A DNA stretch of 51,269 bases from the sequence record PZ445518.1; one strand, written 5' to 3'. The translations under genes and the position numbers were made by a program. Below are positions 8,390 through 42,502 of this stretch, one piece after another (within the stretch, counting starts at the first letter, position 1; the number at the start of each line of letters is the position of its first letter). Below the pieces are notes generated by a model. The model was not told the DNA's origin, searched no databases, and saw only the letters and a list, made by a program, of their open reading frames with translations. Origin of the DNA: a phage.

Positions 8390-8822
8390 TTATAAGATCA
8401 GGGAATTTCACGGTGATATAAGCAGGTGGATTGATTCAGTAAGCAGCGGCCTTGTTGATTGCGTTGAAATGTTCGCGACAAACGTCCACGAGGATCTTGT
8501 AAAGCGTTCGCCAGTTGATACGGGCCGATATAAAGCTAACTGGCAGGTAACAGCAAACAAGCCGCCGCTATATGCTCTCAATCAATACGATCGCGATGGT
8601 AGTAAAACCATTGCAGAAGGCAAGCGAGCAATATATGCAATCATGCGGGGCGGTGGAGCGGTGCGGTCAATCTATTTTTCAAACATGCTTATTTACGCCA
8701 ATGCGCTTGAATACGGGCATTCAAAACAAGCGCCGTCCGGCGTGCTGGGAATCGTGGCGGTAAAGCTGCGATCCTATATGACTAAGGCAATAAAGGATTC
8801 GAGGGCAAAAAATGCACTATGA
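8370..8822 (+). CDS. neck / tail component (putative)
   Basis: 150-aa ORF overlapping neighbours; synteny only. Confidence 0.4.
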   Translation: MQCMADNYKIREFHGDISRWIDSVSSGLVDCVEMFATNVHEDLVKRSPVDTGRYKANWQVTANKPPLYALNQYDRDGSKTIAEGKRAIYAIMRGGGAVRSIYFSNMLIYANALEYGHSKQAPSGVLGIVAVKLRSYMTKAIKDSRAKNAL

Positions 8823-9213
8823 TTTAATGTTAGCGGCAAGAAAGGCGCTGGCGGAGGAATATGAATCACGATTCAAGATCGCCTATGAAAACGTTGATTT
8901 TGTTCCGCCTGGTGATGGTTCGATGTGGTTAAAATTTGACTACATGGAAGCCGACACAGATCGCATATCTCTTGATAGAAAATGCGTTTCTTATATCGGA
9001 TTGGTTCAGGTTGGAATTGTTATGCCTCCTGGCGGCGGCACTGATAAAGCGCGTTTGCTGGCTAAAGAGATTGCGAGATTTTTCTATGATGGTAGAATGT
9101 TTGAAACTGGCTATATTAGCGAGGGGGCAAACGTCCACGCATTACTAAAAAGTGAAACAGGTTGGTTCTTACCGATCCGTTTCAGTGTTAGGCTTGACAC
9201 AAAGGAGGAATAA
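8812..9213 (+). CDS. tail completion protein (putative)
   Basis: 133-aa ORF directly upstream of major tail gene. Confidence 0.4.
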   Translation: MHYDLMLAARKALAEEYESRFKIAYENVDFVPPGDGSMWLKFDYMEADTDRISLDRKCVSYIGLVQVGIVMPPGGGTDKARLLAKEIARFFYDGRMFETGYISEGANVHALLKSETGWFLPIRFSVRLDTKEE

Positions 9214-9215
9214 TC

Positions 9216-9878
9216 ATGCACTTGCCTAATGGTTCTCAAATTTTCATCGGCGTTAATATGGGTGATCCGATTCAGGCTACGGCTATTTCAAATGCTAATG
9301 ATCCTGTTTTTACGACTGCAAACACTCAAAGCATCAAAAAAGGCGCTTATGTTCTTATTGAAACATCTTCTTGGGGCAAACTTGTTAGTCGAGTGCTTCG
9401 AGTTAAGGAAGTATCAGGTAATGTAAGTGTTACTCTTGAGGGCGTTAGCACCAAAGATACAAACGTATTTCCAGAAGGAAAGAACACAGCAACTTTCCGA
9501 GAAGTGAAATCTTGGGTAGAGGTTCCTTGCGTGCAGGATCTTGCGCAGGACGGCGGCGAGCAACAGTATTACACTTATCAGTGTTTGGCTGATGACCAGG
9601 AGCAGCAGTTACCGACCTACAAGAGCGCGGTTTCTCTTACCTACACTTTCGCTCATGAATATGATAACCCGATTTATCCGATCTTGCGCGAGGCTGAGGA
9701 ATCCGGCGACGTAACCGCTTTGCGTATGTACGTGCCGAAAGCTAAAGAGATGCGTTGCTGGGCTGGCGTATTGTCTTTTAATGACATTCCGCAAACAACT
9801 ATGAACGAAATGGAAACTGTTTCCCTTTCTGTATCTCTGAAAGGCCGATTCACGTTCTTACCTTCCGACGTTAAGTAA
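9216..9878 (+). CDS. major tail protein (putative)
   Basis: 220 aa; RBS AAGGAGG; followed by strong terminator; upstream of chaperone and tape measure. Confidence 0.55.
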   Translation: MHLPNGSQIFIGVNMGDPIQATAISNANDPVFTTANTQSIKKGAYVLIETSSWGKLVSRVLRVKEVSGNVSVTLEGVSTKDTNVFPEGKNTATFREVKSWVEVPCVQDLAQDGGEQQYYTYQCLADDQEQQLPTYKSAVSLTYTFAHEYDNPIYPILREAEESGDVTALRMYVPKAKEMRCWAGVLSFNDIPQTTMNEMETVSLSVSLKGRFTFLPSDVK

Positions 9879-20398: not shown

Positions 20399-20673
20399 TA
20401 ATTACACCTCAAATCAATAAATTTACTTTCATTTTGCCAACGGTTGATAAATTTAACTTCTTTATTGTCAACGCTCAACCTGTATTGCTTTTGGCTGAAT
20501 CTGTTTTCTCGGACTGCATTAATTTTGACTTCATGTAATCCGTTAACAGGGAATGTTTTAACGTTAAATTTTGCCGTGCAATCGATCTCCTTGAAGTTGC
20601 CAGTAGGCGACGCTGCGCATCCTGTCAGAGCGGCTACAGTGGCGATAACTGCGATTAACTTTTTCATCTTCAA
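20398..20673 (-). CDS. outer-membrane lipoprotein, Cor-like superinfection-exclusion candidate
   Basis: Signal peptide plus lipobox LTGC (MKMKKLIAVIATVAALTGC); small size; next to tail genes as for cor in T1/phi80-type phages. Confidence 0.6.
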   Translation of the reverse strand: MKMKKLIAVIATVAALTGCAASPTGNFKEIDCTAKFNVKTFPVNGLHEVKINAVRENRFSQKQYRLSVDNKEVKFINRWQNESKFIDLRCN

Positions 20674-20698
20674 TACTCCTTAGTTGTTGTTGGCTGCA

Positions 20699-20744
20699 AC
20701 TATACACGATCTTGGGCATCGCGTTTAGCAAAAAGTGCTATTTG
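20699..20744 (-). promoter_or_regulatory. conserved-element promoter cassette (-10 TATAGT) for Cor-like operon
   Basis: Reverse complement of GTTTAGCAAAAAGTGCTATTTG, about 20 nt spacer, TATAGT, leader CAACAACAACTAAGGAG. Confidence 0.5.
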
Positions 20745-21110
20745 TTATTTTTTGTTTTCCGGTGTTATCGAATTTAAGACGGCGTAAATTTAGCGCAAAA
20801 TTTAGACAACATAAGATCAATAAACAATCAATAAAATAGATATATACATATAAAATCAATAGTTTATTTATTTATGTATGTATATTTGTTTTTTCTTGTT
20901 ATCTGCGTTTCTTGTGGTTTTGGTTGTTTGTGGTGATTTTTCTTTCTGAGTATCTGTATGTGCCATCATTCATGTGTATGTATATAATCCGGCGTATCTG
21001 AGAGAACAGGGGAACAAGAAAAATAACACACATTAATCATTAACTTATGAGTCAAATCTGTTTTCTTGCCATCTGAGAACGTTTAGAAAACAGAAAAAAC
21101 AAAACAGCTA
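20745..21110. promoter_or_regulatory. AT-rich divergent control region A
   Basis: About 365 bp without ORFs; TATTTATTTATGTATGTATAT and GTATCTGTATGTG word repeats; GGGAACAAGAAAAA..ACACATTAA box shared with region B. Confidence 0.5.
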
Positions 21111-21138
21111 TTGACTAAATCAACCAAATGGCTACAAT
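21111..21138 (+). promoter_or_regulatory. sigma70-type promoter for recombination module
   Basis: TTGACT, 16-nt spacer, TACAAT; about 30 nt upstream of exonuclease ATG. Confidence 0.6.
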
Positions 21139-21168
21139 GCACGCATAAAGCAACAAGGAGCATTAAAG

Positions 21169-22224
21169 ATGAGTGATTTTAACGCCTACACTAGCGAAGA
21201 AATGAGCAACGAGCTTTATCATGATCCTAACGCGTGGACGGCTGAATATGTCAGCGGTTCCAGCCTAGCGGAGATTTACAGCACTTGCCCGGCGTACTGG
21301 AAGTACAAGCCGCGCCAGGAAACTAAAGCACTTGTTTTCGGTACGCAGTCGCATACCAACTTTGAAAGCAAGGAGCTATTCGAAAAAACATATCGCCGCG
21401 CACCGTCGCAGGATGATTTTAAAGACCTGATCACTAGTCAAACGGCGTTAGCATCAAAGCTGAAATCTTTTGGCCTGAAAGGTACGACGGGTAAACAATA
21501 CCCTGAATTACTGGAAATGCTGTACAAGTGCGGCGAGGATCTCAATGTGTGGTGGCTTATCGAAATGATGGCAGAATGCCAGGCCGCAGCGGACGGAGTG
21601 CAGTTAATAGACGCTAAAGATTATGATGCCTGTGTAGCGATGCGGCGCGTACTTGAGGCCATACCGGAGCATAACGCTTGCATGAACAGCCCAACCGCGC
21701 AGCGTGAAATGTCAATATTTGGGATCATCAACGGCGTAAAAGTAAAAGTGCGTCTTGATCACGTTGACGTAAACAAGGATGTAAAGGCAACAATCATTAA
21801 CGGTTACGACGAAAAAGGCAGGCCGATTTATGAAGAAGTCACCTATCCAGAAGCGGTGATTATCACTGACTACAAAACAACGGTTAGCGCAAATCCGGTT
21901 GACTTCCAGCGCCTGGCTTACAATCACGGCTATTATCTTAAAATGGCTTTGCAACATGACTTATTCAAAAAGGCTTATCCAGACGAGGAAAGGCCAGTAA
22001 TTGTAAGATTGCTTGCGCAGGAGAAGAAAGAGCCTTACTTGCCGCTTGCTTTCCGCATGAATATTGAGCAATTGAAGATCGGGCGCATCCAGTACATGAG
22101 CGTGATCAACAAGTTCAACGTTTGCCAGCAGTTAGACGAATGGCCTTCGTATGCAAACGGGCAACCGGAAATTGATCTTGATACTCCTGATTGGGTTCGT
22201 GCTCAATTCAGGCATTATCTTTGA
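21169..22224 (+). CDS. PD-(D/E)XK family recombination exonuclease
   Basis: 351 aa; D...D/E-x-K arrangement (VRLDHVDV ... IITDYKTT); first gene of recombination module. Confidence 0.65.
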   Translation: MSDFNAYTSEEMSNELYHDPNAWTAEYVSGSSLAEIYSTCPAYWKYKPRQETKALVFGTQSHTNFESKELFEKTYRRAPSQDDFKDLITSQTALASKLKSFGLKGTTGKQYPELLEMLYKCGEDLNVWWLIEMMAECQAAADGVQLIDAKDYDACVAMRRVLEAIPEHNACMNSPTAQREMSIFGIINGVKVKVRLDHVDVNKDVKATIINGYDEKGRPIYEEVTYPEAVIITDYKTTVSANPVDFQRLAYNHGYYLKMALQHDLFKKAYPDEERPVIVRLLAQEKKEPYLPLAFRMNIEQLKIGRIQYMSVINKFNVCQQLDEWPSYANGQPEIDLDTPDWVRAQFRHYL

Positions 22225-26769: not shown

Positions 26770-27699
26770 TTATAGCAGTGATTCGGGCTTGTAGAGTTTT
26801 CTTTCTACTCCCTGTTTAAAATTATCGTTAACAGGCATCATTATGTCAAGTCCTCTTTCCTCTGCCGCGATTATCACATCACGATCATCTTTCCGGCAGA
26901 CTACGCGCATTCTTCTTTCTCCTTTATATCTATGCGCAACCATTTCAAGATTTGAAGGAGTAAAACAGGCCCACACCTCTTGACCAGTTGATAAATGAAC
27001 ATGCTGAGAATCAACCCAATCAAGGCACAAATAGATCGTCTTATCTGTACTACCTGTTTTAACAACAGATCCGCGCGTGTAGTCGCGAGCTAAAAACCAA
27101 TCCTTTCCATCCTCATCAATGAAAAGCACGTTACACATTTCATCATCCAGCCCGTCATCATGCACCAGGTGACAAGGTAGCGCGTGAATGTATCGACCAT
27201 CCTTGACGCCGCAATCATAATGACAATCTTCCGGCGGATATATCCCCTCATAAACGCTTAAAGGTGTGCGATCGAATTTTAATGTTTTTGCCATCACTTT
27301 TTCGCAACATTCATGACTTGCCTGTTTCCCGAACGAGTAACCAGAAGAACGCGAAGCGCGTTTGTTTGCTCTGATCCTGTAATCTTGTGGCACTTTTCCG
27401 AGGAAGCGGCCCAAAATGTTGATGGCCTCGCTGTAAGGTTCGCCAGTTAATTTCATTAACCAACCGATCCCCGTGTCGTTGCCGCACACGTTGCAGATCG
27501 CGCCGCCGTCGCCCTCTTCATTTAGCTTATCAGTCCATCTAAAACGATCCTTACCGCCGCAGTGTGGGCAAGGTTGATGCTTTTTGTTGAAAACATCGCT
27601 ATGCAGTCCGCAAATGCTTTGTAGTGCTTCACGCCATAACCCCTTCATATATGGCAAAACATCTTCTTTCTGATAGGTCATAAAGTTTTCAGTATTCAT
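26770..27699 (-). CDS. DNA primase (zinc-ribbon type)
   Basis: CPHCGG...CNVCG zinc ribbon near N-terminus; ATG at 27699 just downstream of terminator hairpin. Confidence 0.65.
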   Translation of the reverse strand: MNTENFMTYQKEDVLPYMKGLWREALQSICGLHSDVFNKKHQPCPHCGGKDRFRWTDKLNEEGDGGAICNVCGNDTGIGWLMKLTGEPYSEAINILGRFLGKVPQDYRIRANKRASRSSGYSFGKQASHECCEKVMAKTLKFDRTPLSVYEGIYPPEDCHYDCGVKDGRYIHALPCHLVHDDGLDDEMCNVLFIDEDGKDWFLARDYTRGSVVKTGSTDKTIYLCLDWVDSQHVHLSTGQEVWACFTPSNLEMVAHRYKGERRMRVVCRKDDRDVIIAAEERGLDIMMPVNDNFKQGVERKLYKPESLL

Positions 27700-27709
27700 G
27701 GCAAACCTC

Positions 27710-27747
27710 AATAAAAAAGCCCAGCAAATATTATCATTTCGCTGGGC
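27710..27747 (-). terminator. terminator/attenuator hairpin between HTH gene and primase
   Basis: Minus strand: GCCCAGC..GCTGGGC followed by TTTTTTATT, immediately upstream of primase RBS. Confidence 0.55.
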
Positions 27748-27754
27748 CTTATCA

Positions 27755-28231
27755 TTAGCTATTCGTGCTGTTATCACCTTTGTAGAATCGTCCGCCTGGT
27801 TCGTAGTCTGAATTTTTGACTACGCGCAACATATCGTATTTGTCGCAACGGGTAGTAAGAGGCTTACCGTTAGAATCAAACCGCAGATCTGGACGACAAA
27901 ATGATGCGCGGTATCCTTTGCATCCATTATATTTGTAGTCGTTATGCACCTTTTGTGCTCCAGCGGCTGAAATCATACCACGCTTTCGCCACTGGTTAAC
28001 GACTTGCTGAGATACGCGCAGACGTCGAGCCATAGCAGGAACGCCGCCGTAATACTCGATCAGAATGTCAAGGCGAGATTTCAGGCTTGCTTTTACCTCA
28101 TCTCGCAGGATAAGAAATCCGGTTCGGTGTTTTCGTGGTTTTTTGTCTTTACCTCGTCGCGTTCCGTTGTTACCGTTAATAGTGCGCTTGTCGATCTCAC
28201 CCGTAGATACTGCAATTCGTGCATCTTTCAT
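27755..28231 (-). CDS. HTH DNA-binding protein (putative transcriptional regulator)
   Basis: Helix-turn-helix-like segment GGVPAMARRLRVSQQVVNQWRKRG; first gene of leftward operon from divergent region. Confidence 0.5.
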   Translation of the reverse strand: MKDARIAVSTGEIDKRTINGNNGTRRGKDKKPRKHRTGFLILRDEVKASLKSRLDILIEYYGGVPAMARRLRVSQQVVNQWRKRGMISAAGAQKVHNDYKYNGCKGYRASFCRPDLRFDSNGKPLTTRCDKYDMLRVVKNSDYEPGGRFYKGDNSTNS

Positions 28232-35255: not shown

Positions 35256-35577
35256 CGCCCATCTCCCCTATTCTAGCCATATCCCTGATCCAGTCGTTGC
35301 GCATACCATCCAGGCTATACAATTCGAATCCGAAAGGCCGCTTTGACGATCCTTTGGACCAGTATTTTCCGCAGACTCCATCTATATAACCAGCCGTCAT
35401 CATTCTTGCGCAAAATTCCTTAGATGCAAGGCTGGCGAACATTCGCGGCGTAAGTCCGGCGGCCCGTGCGAGCCGCTCACATTCTCTATGCTGATAGATA
35501 AATTTGGCTATGTGCTGCCTGTTAAACCAATCGTATGACTCACACCATTTATACAGATCAAGCAAAAACATAATCAT
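35182..35577 (-). CDS. hypothetical protein
   Basis: 131-aa ORF; start overlaps upstream gene stop. Confidence 0.45.
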   Translation of the reverse strand: MIMFLLDLYKWCESYDWFNRQHIAKFIYQHRECERLARAAGLTPRMFASLASKEFCARMMTAGYIDGVCGKYWSKGSSKRPFGFELYSLDGMRNDWIRDMARIGEMGDDELFQAKANRQDLEALRRKFNIT

Positions 35578-37154
35578 CCCAGCAGTATTGGATTGACAAA
35601 AATAACACCATTAATCACACAAACATAATTTCTTTCTTCCAGCATTGGCAGTAAGTGCCCTTCTATCCTTTTCATTACGCCAGCCTGACCAACGAAAGGT
35701 TTTACCTTTCTCGCTGATTCGTACAGGGCGCGGATATTCAGAATACCTTTATTAGCCTTGCCGTGCCTCGTGATCAATTCAATCAATTTACCCATTTCAG
35801 CATCATCACCAGCATAACCAGAAGCATTGGCGGCGCTAATGTATGTTTTGCTCAATTCCTGAAACATGATCAACGCCTCTTGCATTGTTTCCACGTCGAT
35901 CTCTTTCGACTTCTGCGGGTATCCGGCAGGATTAAACCAGTTACGGATAACATGCAGGACGGAAGCAAGCCTGATCACCTGTTTATCCATTTTACCCAGC
36001 GCACCGCGTAACATTGTATGAGAATACTTTCCTCCGTCTGCAAGATGCGGTTCCATATCCTGGCGAGCAATGTTGAGCACTCGCATAGCTGAACGGCTTA
36101 TTTTCAGCGATATATTTGATTCGCTCATGATGTTATGCACCAATTGATAATATTGGGCTTTCAATTCAGAATCCACCGCCTCATAGGTAGAATCACCATT
36201 TTCATCAATGAATGAGCGACGGCCTAAGAATGATTCCTCTCGGACCAACAAAAAACGCTCACTAACACCGATGCCTCGCGATCCAGCGTCCATGATTCCG
36301 CTTATCGTTTCATCCTGGGCTATGACGCTCATACATCCAAGCGCGCGAAAACTCATATTATTGTCAGCATTAGCACGGGCAATTGATACGTGACCATTAT
36401 CCCACGCCTTAAGCACTAACTCACTGTTAGTCTTCCTTTCGCTATTTGCATAGGTCAAGCCTAACAGACTGTTAATACTTGTTGCTTCATCAGATATTAC
36501 GGCAAAGTTACCTTGCTTGTTGTTGATTTTCGCCAAGCCTTCTGGAGTTGTATCTGAAACAGGAAAAGTTATATCACACATTTTTTCCAGCTTTTCCTCC
36601 AGATCCTCTTTTTCCTGGTATAGAGATTCCATATCAGCGCCGGATCTTTCGCTTTTCATCTCCTTTGCAAGACCTGCCAGCTTTGCCTGTATTTTCTTTC
36701 TTTCCTTGCGGCGTTGCTCGTTGATCTTCTCAACTTCCGCAATCATCGGAGCAATAGCCATGCTGTTGATCGCAGATTTACCAGTTGACGGCGGCTGGCT
36801 TGTAACGACGTAAAGCGCAGTCGGCTGATCGGTTCCGTGATAGTCAACCGTAAAGCGTCCAAGCATAGCGGCAGAAATGCAGCCGATAAAGTGCATGTAA
36901 GCCGATGATTCAGGGAATTGAACGGATCGCGCAATGCTGCGTGATAACTTGCCGACAACATCAATATCATTACCAAGAGAAATAACGGGGTAGCGATCGT
37001 GACCGCTATTCACATCCTTTACGTCGCCCCAAAAGCTGGACGACTGGCGATAGCCGTTAGCCTGAATTGATACGCGAACTGGCGAAAGGTTCTGGCTTTC
37101 AGCCATAGCGATTATTTGTTGTGGAGTTAATTTGTTCGTTTCTAATGAAAACAT
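35574..37154 (-). CDS. P-loop NTPase, DUF3987 / primase-C-terminal-like replication protein (putative)
   Basis: 526 aa; Walker A-like PPSTGKS; size and placement among replication genes. Confidence 0.5.
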   Translation of the reverse strand: MFSLETNKLTPQQIIAMAESQNLSPVRVSIQANGYRQSSSFWGDVKDVNSGHDRYPVISLGNDIDVVGKLSRSIARSVQFPESSAYMHFIGCISAAMLGRFTVDYHGTDQPTALYVVTSQPPSTGKSAINSMAIAPMIAEVEKINEQRRKERKKIQAKLAGLAKEMKSERSGADMESLYQEKEDLEEKLEKMCDITFPVSDTTPEGLAKINNKQGNFAVISDEATSINSLLGLTYANSERKTNSELVLKAWDNGHVSIARANADNNMSFRALGCMSVIAQDETISGIMDAGSRGIGVSERFLLVREESFLGRRSFIDENGDSTYEAVDSELKAQYYQLVHNIMSESNISLKISRSAMRVLNIARQDMEPHLADGGKYSHTMLRGALGKMDKQVIRLASVLHVIRNWFNPAGYPQKSKEIDVETMQEALIMFQELSKTYISAANASGYAGDDAEMGKLIELITRHGKANKGILNIRALYESARKVKPFVGQAGVMKRIEGHLLPMLEERNYVCVINGVIFVNPILLG

Positions 37155-40859: not shown

Positions 40860-41089
40860 ACATCATTGATAAAATCAGCACGGCCCTTAATGTTGCTGAT
40901 GTGGAACGTCTTTTCAGCGTACAGGCCATCACCTTCAATCACGATCATTACGCGAGTCGGTTTATTCACGGGCGCACACGAAAAGAGTGGTCGCGCCGGA
41001 AGAAATTTAGTAGCCACATCCAGGTTAGCCCTGGCGGCCCTGCAAAACGCCTCCGCCAGATCCAAATCATTTTCGGTAATCACCGCCAT
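40823..41089 (-). CDS. hypothetical protein
   Basis: 88-aa ORF, coupled to upstream gene. Confidence 0.4.
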   Translation of the reverse strand: MAVITENDLDLAEAFCRAARANLDVATKFLPARPLFSCAPVNKPTRVMIVIEGDGLYAEKTFHISNIKGRADFINDVCLLQEKKKCWM

Positions 41090-41361
41090 TACTTCTTGAT
41101 CTCCTTACTGATAAATTTCAGCACCTGGCGCAAGAAAACTTCGTTGTTGATAGTCGCTGGCAATTCTTCTTTCACTTCTTGCGGCAGATAGATATTGCCG
41201 TGCCAGGTCAAGCAATCGTAGTTGATACGATAAGAGCAAAGCCACTCGCAATCGTTATCTGCTTCCCAAATGCAGAGTTGCAGAACATCGCCAAAATCTT
41301 CAACAGTCAGATCCAGACCGTGACGCTTAGCGAAATTGAAAGTGGTTTTGCTGATGTTCAT
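41089..41361 (-). CDS. hypothetical protein (first leftward early gene)
   Basis: ATG at 41361 after AGGAG; directly downstream of promoter cassette in divergent control region. Confidence 0.5.
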   Translation of the reverse strand: MNISKTTFNFAKRHGLDLTVEDFGDVLQLCIWEADNDCEWLCSYRINYDCLTWHGNIYLPQEVKEELPATINNEVFLRQVLKFISKEIKK

Positions 41362-41396
41362 TTACTATCTCCTGAGCGGTTCGTTTCGATGTGTGT

Positions 41397-41444
41397 AATG
41401 TACCCGATCAGGCGGCCTGAGTTTTAACAAAAAGTGCTATTTGA
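41397..41444 (-). promoter_or_regulatory. conserved-element promoter cassette (-10 TACATT) for leftward early operon
   Basis: Minus strand: AAATAGCACTTTTTGTTAAAAC, 19 nt, TACATT, leader CATCGAAACGAAC. Confidence 0.5.
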
Positions 41445-41979
41445 CGGTTAGCACCAGGATTGTGATCGAAATAATCAAAAGTAATCATTCGTAATCAAAT
41501 CACGTCAAAATGATGATTGCATTTGCAAATTTGATGAGAAAAGTAATCACGTTTAATCATTGGTTGCAGGGGAGATAGTGAAACCTTCCCCTCTTGCCTC
41601 ACTTTCCCGCCTGGCTGTCAGTGGTTGTTATGTTCCGTTCCCGCCTGTTCTTTTGTTGACCTTCCGCAAAATACGATAACAAAAAATAACAAACAATACC
41701 TATATAATACATTGAAAAATAAGGATTATTTATTTATATGTATCTATATATTATCTTTTGTTATCTTGGTTATTGTGGTATTTGGTGGGGGTATATAGTT
41801 TTTGTGTATCTATATGTGTGTATGGGTATGTAGGGGCATATATATCTATATGGCACTTTCCGCGAGAAAACTTCGATAACAGCCAATGATAACATTGATT
41901 TATAAGGAAAAATAACGCCAATATTGTTATTGTGCCACCATATAAAATTGATAAAACACGCGGGAACAAGAAAAAACAG
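41445..41979. promoter_or_regulatory. AT-rich divergent control region B (candidate operator/origin region)
   Basis: About 535 bp without ORFs; GTAATCA x3, palindrome ATTTGCAAAT, TTCCCGCCTG x2, TATGT/GTATCTATAT word repeats, GGGAACAAGAAAAA box. Confidence 0.5.
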
Positions 41980-42008
41980 TTGACACATTAAATAGCATTA
42001 TTGATAAT
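41980..42008 (+). promoter_or_regulatory. sigma70-type promoter for rightward early operon
   Basis: TTGACA, 17-nt spacer, GATAAT; about 30 nt upstream of ATG 42038. Confidence 0.6.
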
Positions 42009-42037
42009 GCCGACACCTAACAACCAGGAGGTAGAAA

Positions 42038-42502
42038 ATGAGCGAGCAATCATTAACTGACACGCTGCGCCGTGCAGCTATTATGCTGGCTAATGGCGAG
42101 GAAGAGGCGATCAAGATTCCTGACGCGTATTTGCAGGTCCACATGTTCGGCAAGAAGTCGGCAAGCAATCCGGCGGCCTACATTCGCCAGATCATGAGTC
42201 GAGTTCCAGAAGTCGCCGAGCGGGGGCGCGTATCCGTTACCCGTGGAGTTTACGGGCCGGAAGATGAAAACTTCGGTAGCACTTTCTACGAGGTGCGCAT
42301 TGTTGAAGGACGTCGCAAGGTTTACAACAAAGAGGCACTGGAAAGGGCAGTACGCCAGGCTAAGCGCAAGGTTGCAGAGGCGATCATTGATATGTCACCA
42401 AACCTAGCAAACTATGCGCCGGAAGAGTATGAAACATTATCAAAGGCCGTCGCTGACTTTCACGCGATGATCAAAAAAACTTTCCTGGAGGATGAGCAAT
42501 GA
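42038..42502 (+). CDS. hypothetical protein (first rightward early gene)
   Basis: AGGAGG RBS; downstream of TTGACA-N17-GATAAT promoter. Confidence 0.5.
   Translation: MSEQSLTDTLRRAAIMLANGEEEAIKIPDAYLQVHMFGKKSASNPAAYIRQIMSRVPEVAERGRVSVTRGVYGPEDENFGSTFYEVRIVEGRRKVYNKEALERAVRQAKRKVAEAIIDMSPNLANYAPEEYETLSKAVADFHAMIKKTFLEDEQ

What the first reader, a model, noticed from the sequence alone, without database searches (positions are those of the whole stretch)
41445..41979. Control region B: clustered direct repeats and palindrome, candidate operator/iteron array
Within about 535 non-coding bp: three copies of (A/C)GTAATCA (about 41480-41487, 41490-41497, 41543-41550) with inverted TGATGA copies, a 10-bp perfect palindrome ATTTGCAAAT (about 41521-41530), a hairpin AGGGGA..TCCCCT (about 41567-41592), two direct copies of TTCCCGCCTG about 32 bp apart (about 41597-41606 and 41629-41638), then an AT-rich array of TATGT/GTATCTATAT-type words before the TTGACA-N17-GATAAT promoter. 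The density of distinct repeat types suggests a switch region or origin rather than a simple promoter pair.
Basis: seen in the sequence. Interest (0 to 1): 0.5.

Follow-up and report, generated by a model that had tools for sequence, protein, structure and literature searches.

The report
Phage packaging-start and origin-like control hub

Summary
The window is Shigella phage JK16 (Warwickvirus, Drexlerviridae). The finding fills most of the 676-bp divergent intergenic region 41362-42037.

What holds up:
- Five same-strand TAATCA copies, four of them in 10-bp register.
- A genome-wide concentration of GATAACA.
- A roughly 125-nt AT-rich imperfect palindrome.
- A near-consensus rightward promoter.

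What does not hold up: the exact 10-bp palindrome, the AGGGGA/TCCCCT hairpin, the exact TTCCCGCCTG pair and the TATGT-type words.

Comparison with about 30 diverged relatives shows two modules that recombine independently at about 41630.

- **Left block (41443-41630).** It carries lineage-specific short repeats. The T1 and TLS records start at the equivalent place; the TLS paper states that its start is the restriction-mapped pac cut. A 585-bp duplication in the JK16 record begins at 41636. I read this block as the packaging-initiation (pac) region.
- **Right AT-rich module.** It has a conserved core flanked by inverted AACA/TGTT pairs and a second copy at 20670-21169. Its lineage-specific heptamers are concentrated in those two regions and resemble phage P4 ori/crr repeats. 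The phage's primase is P4-alpha-like. I read this module as a candidate origin.

Promoters are well supported, pac is probable and ori is plausible. None is proven.

The parts
41397..41442 (-). Leftward early promoter. It consists of the Drexlerviridae 21-nt repeat (minus-strand sense AAATAGCACTTTTTGTTAAAA, 41422-41442) plus a -10 TACATT (plus strand AATGTA, 41397-41402). It lies just outside the finding's left edge.
   Evidence: There are 15 copies genome-wide against 0.02 expected. [quoted passage not shown] The repeat was described for TLS in PMC11447400, with function unknown.
41469..41562 (+). TAATCA array: three copies at 41472, 41482 and 41492 and two at 41544 and 41554, each cluster at 10-bp phasing. 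The two clusters flank the central dyad.
   Evidence: p about 0.004 against shuffles, and the only such cluster in the genome. All copies are invariant in 6 Warwickvirus sequences. The block occurs only in about 61 Warwickvirus records.
41511..41537 (.). Central dyad TGATGATTGC-ATTT-GCAAATTTGATGA (TTGC-N4-GCAA at 41517-41528).
   Evidence: Other lineages have TTGC-N7-GCAA dyads at the same relative place: 25 in 34 regions, against 0-3 for other spacers. T1 genome position 1 starts at such a dyad.
41566..41617 (+). G-rich conserved block GCAGGGGAGATAGTGAAACC..TTCCCGCCTGGCTG. Its function is unknown.
   Evidence: A motif of the type GAGGGG..GAAAC..TTCC..CCTGGC recurs in T1, TLS, L010, L013, L040 and L049/50. 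It has no significant fold.
41630..41650 (.). Module boundary. It is the mosaic recombination junction between Warwickvirus subgroups and the left edge (41636) of the 585-bp tandem duplication in the JK16 GenBank record. It is a candidate DNA-end or pac-cut zone.
   Evidence: Searches show that identity collapses at the same architectural position in six lineage pairs. One search shows the duplication 41636-42222.
41664..41790 (.). AT-rich imperfect palindrome. The A/C-rich arm (41673-41700, GATAACAAAAAATAACAAACAATA) and the G/T-rich arm (41751-41780, TTATCTTTTGTTATCTTGGTTATTG) flank a conserved core (41698-41750) with TATAAT at 41703-41708. It is a candidate unwinding element or initiator loading site.
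   Evidence: ssDNA fold z = -3.5 and -4.2. The core stays 0.78-0.90 identical where the flanks drop to 0.23-0.5. An 18-lineage alignment gives AAC-N-AAC..CTATAATA..GTTAGTTATATAT..TGTT-N5-TGTT. Arms of different sequence keep the dyad in L017, L040, L042 and TLS.
41804..41866 (+). Second ATATA cluster followed by CTTTCCGCGAG (TTCCGC at 41858).
   Evidence: ATATA/TATAT is the top enriched 5-mer in the window, T1 and TLS (15-25 copies against 1.4-2.1 expected). TATATATGGGGTA..TCCGC recurs across lineages.
41875..41894 (+). Tandem GATAACA pair (41875, 41888). Further copies lie at 41675 (+) and 41759 (-). This is the lineage-specific iteron-like heptamer.
   Evidence: 6 of 15 genome copies lie in regions A+B (p = 6e-7). 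T1 uses TGTAACA (6 of 6, p = 2.5e-10) and TLS uses GTGAACA (4 of 8, p = 2e-5).
41962..41975 (+). GGGAACAAGAAAAA, shared exactly with region A (21010-21023; inverted copy at 20887-20900).
41980..42008 (+). Rightward early promoter TTGACA-N17-GATAAT. Its spacer holds AAATAGCATT.
   Evidence: 11 of 12 positions. Near-consensus promoters sit at the same place in the relatives.
42038..42502 (+). First rightward gene (DUF7174, 154 aa). It is exchanged together with the AT-rich module as one cassette.
20670..21169 (+). Region A, a paralogous copy of the AT-rich module in the same orientation. It lies upstream of the recE-erf-ssb operon and has its own leftward 21-nt repeat and rightward TTGACT-N17-TACAAT promoter.
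   Evidence: The same A/B pairing with lineage-specific motifs is seen in T1 and TLS.

Best explanation
The finding is the cis-acting hub of a T1-like genome. It sits between two divergent early promoters and is built of two modules.

**1. Left block (41443 to about 41630).** This comprises the TAATCA array, the central TGATGATTGC-N4-GCAAATTTGATGA dyad and a G-rich block. I propose it is the packaging-initiation (pac) region. The small terminase would load on the phased short repeats, and the first cut of a headful series would be made within or just right of the block (about 41520-41640), with packaging proceeding rightwards. All of this is inferred.

**2. Right AT-rich module (about 41650-41979).** I propose it is an iteron-type replication origin, one of two copies; the other is region A at 20.7-21.2 kb. 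A phage DNA-binding protein would occupy the AACA/TGTT-type heptamers (GATAACA in this phage). These lie in inverted pairs around a conserved, easily melted AT core. The flanking early promoters would supply transcriptional activation, and the P4-alpha-like primase and the phage helicases would start synthesis. All of this is inferred.

**Shown versus inferred.** The sequence architecture, its conservation, the modular exchange and the promoters' consensus quality are shown. Protein binding, cleavage and initiation are inferred.
For: **Promoters**
-.

**pac**
- The T1 and TLS records begin inside the equivalent intergenic region, 84 and 118 nt right of the 21-nt repeat, which corresponds to window 41525-41560.
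- The TLS paper gives its start as the restriction-mapped pac site, and the T1 record annotates a 2.8-kb repeat region from its position 1.
- PMC7718038 states that pac lies 'in the corresponding region' in T1-like phages.
- The XY3 record starts at 41578.
- The JK16 record carries a 585-bp tandem duplication starting at 41636, as expected from an untrimmed MIRA contig-end overlap.
- A mosaic junction recurs at the same spot in six lineage pairs.
- The TAATCA cluster is unique in the genome and helically phased.
- The left block and TerS stay together (TerS 99-100% identical) while the right module is swapped.

**ori**
- GC content is 27.5% at 41661-41860.
- The palindrome folds with z = -3.5 to -4.2, and the dyad is kept with different arm sequences in other lineages.
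- The core is conserved within diverged flanks.
- There are two copies per genome in the window, T1 and TLS.
- Lineage-specific heptamers are concentrated in, and for T1 confined to, the two copies.
- The P4 record annotates ori type-1 repeats TGTTCACC (= GGTGAACA) at 9-11-bp spacing, in two cis regions, with ori lying in a divergent intergenic region. TLS and SECphi27 carry GTGAACA(G) tandems.
- The primase is homologous to the P4 alpha N-terminus (E = 2e-15).
- The literature reports no origin for T1-like phages.
Against: - There are no read-start, cleavage, binding or replication data for this phage.
- The T1 and TLS ends come from low-resolution restriction mapping. The TLS base 1 was chosen by resemblance to P22 pac.
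- Many records are simply co-linearised with T1.
- The JK16 duplication could be real rather than an assembly overlap.
- Earlier authors pointed to the ATATA repeats, not the left block, as the T1 pac (second-hand).
- TerS and the left block also co-vary with general phylogeny, so the linkage is weak evidence.
- No homologue of P4 alpha's C-terminal DNA-binding domain was found.
- Exact-word repeats inside the AT-rich half are not above shuffles.
- GC skew only follows gene orientation.
- Two copies upstream of two early operons fit a transcriptional role equally well.
- The window's dyad has an N4 spacer, not the N7 spacer seen in other lineages.
Confidence: 0.45

Rival explanations
1. The region is purely transcriptional. 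Both AT-rich modules (regions A and B) are upstream regulatory regions of strong early promoters. The short repeats are operators for an early-to-middle switch protein, such as the Cro/YdaS-like regulator at 27755-28231 or the DUF7174 product, and the AT-rich DNA acts as an UP-like or curved enhancer or as an H-NS/IHF target. Neither packaging nor replication starts here.
For: - Both modules sit in the same orientation 100-250 bp upstream of near-consensus sigma-70 promoters heading early operons.
- A perfect TATAAT is conserved at the left edge of the core.
- The AT module and the first early gene are exchanged as one cassette, like an operator-regulator immunity module.
- The DUF7174 model has a helix/strand N-domain weakly resembling winged helices.
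- IHF consensus sites lie in the core of 11 lineages and in region A.
- The phage encodes an HTH regulator.
Against: - The T1 and TLS pac mapping places a non-transcriptional function here.
- Region A is 99% identical between phages whose DUF7174 proteins are only 32% identical, so DUF7174 cannot be the factor shared by A and B.
- The repeats lie far upstream (-50 to -330) rather than over the promoter.
Confidence: 0.25
2. The AT-rich ATATA core itself is the pac site, as earlier T1 work reportedly suggested ('five ATATA repeats'). The left block would then be promoter-regulatory only.
For: - ATATA/TATAT is the most enriched 5-mer in the window, T1 and TLS.
- A later paper cites the earlier literature as proposing ATATA repeats for T1 pac.
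- The JK16 duplication (41636-42222) spans the core.
- AT-rich bent DNA with IHF sites accompanies the terminase sites of lambda cos and P1 pac (established knowledge).
Against: - The same core module occurs twice per genome (region A), whereas T1 packaging series start from one site.
- TerS is 99% identical between phages whose AT module differs apart from the core.
- The same later paper reports that Rtp and MSK lack the ATATA repeats.
Confidence: 0.12
3. The region is a hypervariable early-gene cassette with mostly neutral spacer. The right module is simply the promoter-leader of a fast-evolving first early gene (possibly anti-defence). Its repeats are low-complexity AT-rich sequence, and only the two promoters matter.
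For: - Exact-word repeats in 41650-41979 are not above shuffles.
- DUF7174 proteins are only 20-60% identical between lineages.
- The listed palindrome, hairpin and TTCCCGCCTG pair are not conserved.
Against: - The core stays 0.78-0.90 identical amid 0.23-0.5 flanks and is alignable across 18 lineages.
- The heptamers are concentrated in regions A+B.
- The TAATCA array is significant.
- The dyad symmetry is kept with different arm sequences.
Confidence: 0.1
4. The region holds unannotated small genes or a small RNA.
For: - Some GenBank records annotate up to five hypothetical proteins here.
- ORFs of 31-72 aa exist.
Against: - The 31-aa ORF at 41738-41833 loses its ATG and changes frame in relatives.
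- No Rfam family reaches its threshold.
- 41560-41660 is not structured.
- The careful T1, TLS, SECphi27 and BASEL annotations leave the region empty.
Confidence: 0.03

Closest known systems
pac regions of coliphages T1 and TLS (restriction-mapped start of headful packaging)
   Same: - Same family, and the same divergent intergenic region between the leftward replication/early arm and the rightward small-gene arm leading to terS/terL.
- Same order of elements: 21-nt repeat promoter, short-repeat block, G-rich block, AT core, sigma-70 promoter.
   Different: - The primary sequence of the short-repeat block is not alignable.
- T1 has TTGC-N7-GCAA dyads and TGATTG; TLS has TGATT runs; the window has TAATCA x5 and an N4 dyad.
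- The exact pac sequence is not defined in any of them.
Phage P1 pac and SPP1 pac (terminase sites built of clustered short repeats flanking the cut, with bent DNA or IHF)
   Same: Two clusters of a phased hexamer (3 + 2 TAATCA) flank a central segment of about 45 bp, next to AT-rich DNA. This comparison rests on my knowledge of P1 and SPP1 and was not tested here.
   Different: - The hexamer is different and has no GATC/Dam motif.
- TerS here is described as P22-gp3-like (T1 annotation), and P22 pac lies inside the terS gene.
- Binding and cleavage are untested.
Satellite phage P4 ori and crr (type-1 repeats TGTTCACC bound by the alpha primase-helicase)
   Same: - Octamer or heptamer repeats with an AACA/TGTT core at 9-11-bp spacing in both orientations, next to AT-rich DNA.
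- Two separated cis regions per genome.
- ori lies in a divergent intergenic region.
- TLS and SECphi27 carry GTGAACA(G), identical to the P4 repeat core.
- The primase is homologous to the alpha N-terminus.
   Different: - The window's variant is GATAACA, with fewer and looser copies.
- No homologue of alpha's DNA-binding C-terminus was found.
- The helicase is a separate DUF3987 protein with no BLAST similarity to alpha.
Lambdoid OL/OR immunity regions
   Same: - Two operator-bearing control regions per genome share lineage-specific sites.
- A control region plus its adjacent first gene is exchanged as a cassette.
   Different: - This is a virulent phage with no repressor.
- The sites do not overlap the promoters.
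- Region A does not co-vary with the cassette gene.

Membership tests
Drexlerviridae 21-nt intergenic repeat / promoter element | Match to aaATAGCACnnnTTGnTAAAA, oriented with transcription, about 76 nt upstream of a start codon | tested here: met
   The element at 41422-41442 (minus sense) lies 61 nt from the ATG at 41361. There are 15 copies against 0.02 expected. The consensus is from PMC11447400. It lies outside the finding's coordinates.
Sigma-70 promoter | -35 and -10 hexamers close to consensus with a 16-18-nt spacer, upstream of a gene | tested here: met
   TTGACA-N17-GATAAT at 41980-42008, 11 of 12 positions. Equivalent promoters occur in relatives. The transcription start was not mapped.
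Headful pac site | The physical end of the first headful (terminase cut) maps to the site | tested here: inconclusive
   There are no reads for this phage. Indirect evidence: the T1 and TLS record starts at the equivalent place, the XY3 start at 41578 and the JK16 duplication edge at 41636.
Headful pac site | A site unique in the genome with recognition repeats for the small terminase | tested here: inconclusive
   The TAATCA cluster is unique and phased, but TerS binding is not testable with these tools. TerS and left-block co-variation is confounded by phylogeny.
Iteron-type origin (P4 ori/crr-like) | Clustered short repeats at about helical spacing, specific to the origin region(s) | tested here: met
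   GATAACA: 6 of 15 genome copies lie in regions A+B (p = 6e-7). T1 TGTAACA is 6 of 6 and TLS GTGAACA is 4 of 8. Paired AAC/TGTT arms are seen in 18 lineages. Caveat: within the AT-rich half alone, repeats are not above shuffles.
Iteron-type origin (P4 ori/crr-like) | Adjacent AT-rich unwinding element | tested here: met
   GC content is 27.5% at 41661-41860. The AT core is conserved and centred on the dyad.
Iteron-type origin (P4 ori/crr-like) | A cognate initiator with a homologous origin-binding domain (P4 alpha C-terminus) | tested here: not met
   Only the primase domain of alpha has a homologue (E = 2e-15). There is no hit to alpha residues 561-777 anywhere in the window.
Iteron-type origin (P4 ori/crr-like) | Replication initiates at the site, or the site supports replication | not testable with these tools
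   This needs marker-frequency sequencing, 2D gels or plasmid assays.
Operator / immunity-type control region | An adjacent regulator gene co-varies with its binding sites, and the regulator is DNA-binding | tested here: inconclusive
   The cassette exchange of the AT module plus the DUF7174 gene is shown. However, region A does not co-vary, and the DUF7174 fold is only weakly winged-helix-like.

The most novel reading that the evidence does not exclude
T1-like phages replicate from a pair of P4-like origins (region B at about 41.7 kb and region A at about 20.85 kb). Each is a conserved AT-rich dyad flanked by inverted, lineage-specific (G)NNAACA iterons. A still-unidentified phage initiator would load there together with the split P4-alpha-type primase and a separate helicase. 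The pac site abuts the region-B copy, so that packaging start, an origin and both early promoters form one roughly 0.6-kb hub.
Probability: 0.3. Interest if true: 0.7.

Novelty: new member of a known kind. Interest (0 to 1): 0.58.

Why it matters
T1 is one of the seven classic T phages and a notorious laboratory contaminant, yet two recent papers report no identified origin. One states that no iterons exist anywhere in the TLS genome. The pac site is known only to about restriction-map resolution.

This analysis provides:
- base-level candidates for both functions;
- a conserved two-copy AT-core module and lineage-specific heptamers concentrated in the two copies;
- a recurrent recombination junction that explains the mosaicism at the early-gene end.

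All of these are directly testable with read-start analysis, marker-frequency sequencing and plasmid assays. Defined pac and ori fragments would also be useful for building T1-based transducing or phagemid tools.

Tried and rejected
- **Rfam scan** of 41000-42400 at a permissive E-value: only sub-threshold eukaryotic snoRNA, RNase P and miRNA noise.
- **RNA fold** of the 'hairpin' segment: not structured.
- **Small ORFs:** not conserved.
- **GC skew** as an origin indicator: it merely follows gene orientation.
- **DUF7174 as the protein shared by regions A and B:** rejected, because region A is 99% identical between phages whose DUF7174 differs.
- **DUF3987 helicase or any window ORF as a homologue of P4 alpha's DNA-binding C-terminus:** none found.
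- **IHF consensus:** present in many relatives' cores and in region A, but absent from the window's region B.
- **TerS and left-block co-variation:** uninformative beyond phylogeny.
- **Literature:** the original T1 (Roberts 2004) and Rtp (Wietzorrek 2006) papers are not held. No Drexlerviridae transcriptome or termini paper gave base-level data.
- **blastn of the left block:** it reaches only Warwickvirus. Cross-genus comparison therefore had to rest on architecture rather than alignment.

Full report
**Identity and setting**

The 676-bp segment 41362-42037 is 100% identical to Shigella phage JK16 (Warwickvirus, Tempevirinae, Drexlerviridae). It is the divergent intergenic region between two genes:
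- a leftward 90-aa gene (41089-41361), which heads the arm leading to Dcm and a DUF3987 helicase;
- a rightward 154-aa gene (42038-42502), which heads the small-gene arm leading to terS/terL.

The finding (41445-41979) is the part between the two promoters.

**The promoters**

- *Rightward.* TTGACA-N17-GATAAT at 41980-42008 matches 11 of 12 consensus positions. Near-consensus equivalents occur in all relatives inspected.
- *Leftward.* This promoter lies just left of the finding. A 21-nt element at 41422-41442 occurs 15 times in the window against 0.02 expected, always pointing with transcription. A TATAAT-like hexamer follows 21-22 nt after its TTGTTA in the copies counted by hand from the sequences.
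- This is the 'aaATAGCACnnnTTGnTAAAA' repeat already described for TLS, T1, Rtp and Rogue1. Its function is still open.

**Checking the listed repeats**

All the listed repeats exist, some a few bases from the stated positions.

| Feature | Result |
|---|---|
| TAATCA | Real signal: five same-strand copies at 41472, 41482, 41492, 41544, 41554. Only 4 of 1000 shuffles match. It is the only such cluster in the genome. |
| Words in the AT-rich half | Not above shuffles |
| AGGGGA/TCCCCT segment | No significant fold (z = +1.6) |
| Perfect ATTTGCAAAT | Window-specific; 5 of 6 relatives have CTTTGCAAAT |
| TTCCCGCCTG pair | Neither copy is conserved as such |

**Two modules**

- The block 41443-41649 is found only in about 61 Warwickvirus records, at 93-100% identity.
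- From about 41630 the Warwickvirus subgroups diverge.
- Between the window and SECphi27 the left genes are 99% identical. The AT-rich part plus the first rightward gene (Pfam DUF7174) form a swapped cassette with 32% aa identity. DNA identity returns at the end of that gene.
- The same collapse of identity at the same architectural position is seen in six lineage pairs. An island of 0.78-0.90 identity remains at the AT core.

**Comparative architecture**

I fetched 45 loci around the helicase and 26 around TerS, plus the T1 and TLS genomes. Although the sequences are not alignable by BLAST, every lineage has the same order of elements:

1. 21-nt promoter element.
2. A block of lineage-specific short repeats.
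3. A G-rich block ending in ..TTCC..CCTGGC.
4. An A/C-rich arm.
5. The AT core.
6. A G/T-rich arm.
7. A second ATATA cluster followed by ..TCCGC.
8. Tandem (G)NNAACA repeats.
9. A sigma-70 promoter.

The short-repeat blocks differ between lineages:
- TTGC-N7-GCAA dyads: 25 in 34 regions, against 0-3 for any other spacer.
- TGATT runs in TLS.
- An ATTATTCCA/TGGAATAA triple in T1, L010, L014, L018, L034 and L044.
- TAATCA plus a TTGC-N4-GCAA dyad in the window.

**Packaging**

- The T1 and TLS GenBank records both begin inside this intergenic region, 84 and 118 nt to the right of the 21-nt element. That corresponds to window 41525-41560. T1 base 1 falls at the first TTGC-N7-GCAA dyad.
- In TLS, position 1 is the restriction-mapped pac end, refined by resemblance to P22 pac. 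The T1 record annotates a 2.8-kb repeat region from position 1.
- The SU57 paper states that pac lies in the corresponding region of T1-like phages.
- The XY3 record starts at 41578.
- The JK16 record equals the window plus a 585-bp tandem duplication of 41636-42222. JK16 was assembled with MIRA from 2x250 reads. An untrimmed contig-end overlap that was later rotated would give exactly this pattern, which would place the original contig end at 41636. That is 6 bp from the recurrent mosaic junction.
- TerS is 99-100% identical in phages that share the left block but carry different right modules.

Together these observations make the left block, and the junction at about 41580-41640, the best candidate for the pac site and cut. 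All of this evidence is indirect.

**Origin-like module**

- An alignment of the core from 18 lineages gives AAC-N-AAC .. CTATAATA .. (AATCAAT) .. GTTAGTTATATAT .. TGTT-N5-TGTT. These are inverted AACA pairs around a conserved AT core.
- The dyad persists with entirely different arms. In L017, for example, the arms are C-rich and G-rich and the fold gives z = -7.3.
- The module occurs twice per genome, at region A (20670-21169) and region B, in the window, T1 and TLS. The two copies share lineage-specific words.
- The lineage-specific heptamers are concentrated in A+B:
  - T1 TGTAACA, 6 of 6 genome copies (p = 2.5e-10);
  - window GATAACA, 6 of 15 (p = 6e-7);
  - TLS GTGAACA, 4 of 8 (p = 2e-5).
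- Some lineages have blatant arrays: CGGAGGATT 8-9 times in L049/L050 and TTTGCGGTA 5 times in L040.
- The P4 record annotates ori type-1 repeats TGTTCACC (GGTGAACA on the other strand) at 9-11-bp spacing in two cis regions, ori and crr. The ori lies in a divergent intergenic region.
- The window's primase is homologous to the P4 alpha N-terminus (E = 2e-15).
- Recent papers report no origin and 'no such repeats' in T1-like genomes.

Evidence against:
- No homologue of alpha's DNA-binding C-terminus was found.
- GC skew is uninformative.
- A purely transcriptional role fits the two-copy, promoter-proximal layout equally well.

**DUF7174**

- The AF2 model has pLDDT 80. It has an N-terminal helix/strand domain plus two long C-terminal helices.
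- Region A is 99% identical between phages whose DUF7174 proteins are only 32% identical. DUF7174 is therefore not the factor common to A and B. It may act only on the variable part of region B, or it may be an unrelated fast-evolving early protein.

**Verdict**

- The best reading is a composite hub: two early promoters (well supported), the pac region in the left block (probable) and one of two iteron-type, P4-like origin candidates in the AT-rich module (plausible).
- The main rival is a purely transcriptional control region.
- The 21-nt repeat and the approximate location of pac were already in the literature. As far as the held literature shows, the conserved two-copy AT-core module, the region-concentrated heptamers, the P4 resemblance, the recurrent mosaic junction and the JK16 duplication have not been described.

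Noticed in passing
window 41636-42222 versus L001 (MK962751) 8677-9261: The GenBank/RefSeq JK16 record (51,854 bp) equals the window (51,269 bp) plus a 585-bp tandem duplication. The duplication spans the AT-rich module, the rightward promoter and the first 185 nt of the DUF7174 gene, and it creates a truncated 68-aa 'hypothetical protein' CDS. It is probably an untrimmed MIRA contig-end overlap, but it could be real.
   Followed up: partly
window 1567, 6190, 9944, 20722, 26682, 28244, 30733, 31804, 35045, 37207, 38199, 40116, 41421, 42769, 44563, 46013, 48648: The 21-nt Drexlerviridae repeat is followed 21-22 nt later by a TATAAT-like hexamer in the copies counted by hand. A G+C-rich dyad often lies between or over the -10. 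At several copies a conserved leader CATCGAAACGAAC lies just before the ribosome-binding site. This looks like a phage-specific promoter class with an UP-like or activator site replacing the -35.
   Followed up: partly
window 20670-21169: This is a second divergent control region with the same architecture: 21-nt repeat, AT-core palindrome, GGGAACAAGAAAAA, then a TTGACT-N17-TACAAT promoter upstream of recE-erf-ssb. It holds one of only four perfect IHF consensus matches in the genome (20854, AATCAATAGTTTA). It is 99% identical in SECphi27.
   Followed up: partly
L007 (T1) 2, 32, 165; L013, L016, L019, L026, L027, L030, L032, L043, L049, L050, L072: The 15-bp dyad TTGC-N7-GCAA occurs two to four times at a fixed place in many lineages, typically 30-31 bp apart. 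Other spacer lengths are essentially absent. T1's base 1 abuts the first copy. The binding protein is unknown.
   Followed up: partly
L049 and L050 (about 277-800 of the extracted region); L040 about 403-721: Some relatives carry unmistakable iteron arrays around the AT core: CGGAGGATT 8-9 times in both orientations, TTTGCGGTA 5 times, and GCACGCAAT 4 times at 15-bp spacing.
   Followed up: no
window 41993-42002: The spacer of the rightward consensus promoter contains AAATAGCATT (AAATAGCTTT in SECphi27-type phages). This resembles the conserved 5' half (ATAGCAC) of the 21-nt repeat. A single factor could therefore activate the repeat promoters and repress this early promoter.
   Followed up: no
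T1, L010, L014, L018, L034 and L044, directly right of the 21-nt element: An ATTATTCCA .. TGGAATA .. TGGAATAA triple (an inverted pair plus a direct copy) is shared by lineages from different subfamilies. It is absent from the window.
   Followed up: no
one search hit list: Seven records named 'Campylobacter phage' (host Campylobacter jejuni) match this coliphage intergenic region by megablast. These are probably mislabelled or contaminated records.
   Followed up: no
MN781674 (vB_EcoS_XY3) record end/start = window 41577/41578: This record is opened inside the left block, in the loop of the AGGGGA/TCCCCT segment. Whether that reflects a determined terminus is unknown.
   Followed up: no
window 35574-37154 (-) and 26770-27777 (-): The replication genes look like a split P4-alpha arrangement. 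A Zn-ribbon/TOPRIM primase is homologous to the alpha N-terminus. A separate DUF3987 helicase lies about 8 kb away, and a Cro/YdaS-like HTH regulator (27755-28231) lies next to the primase.
   Followed up: partly
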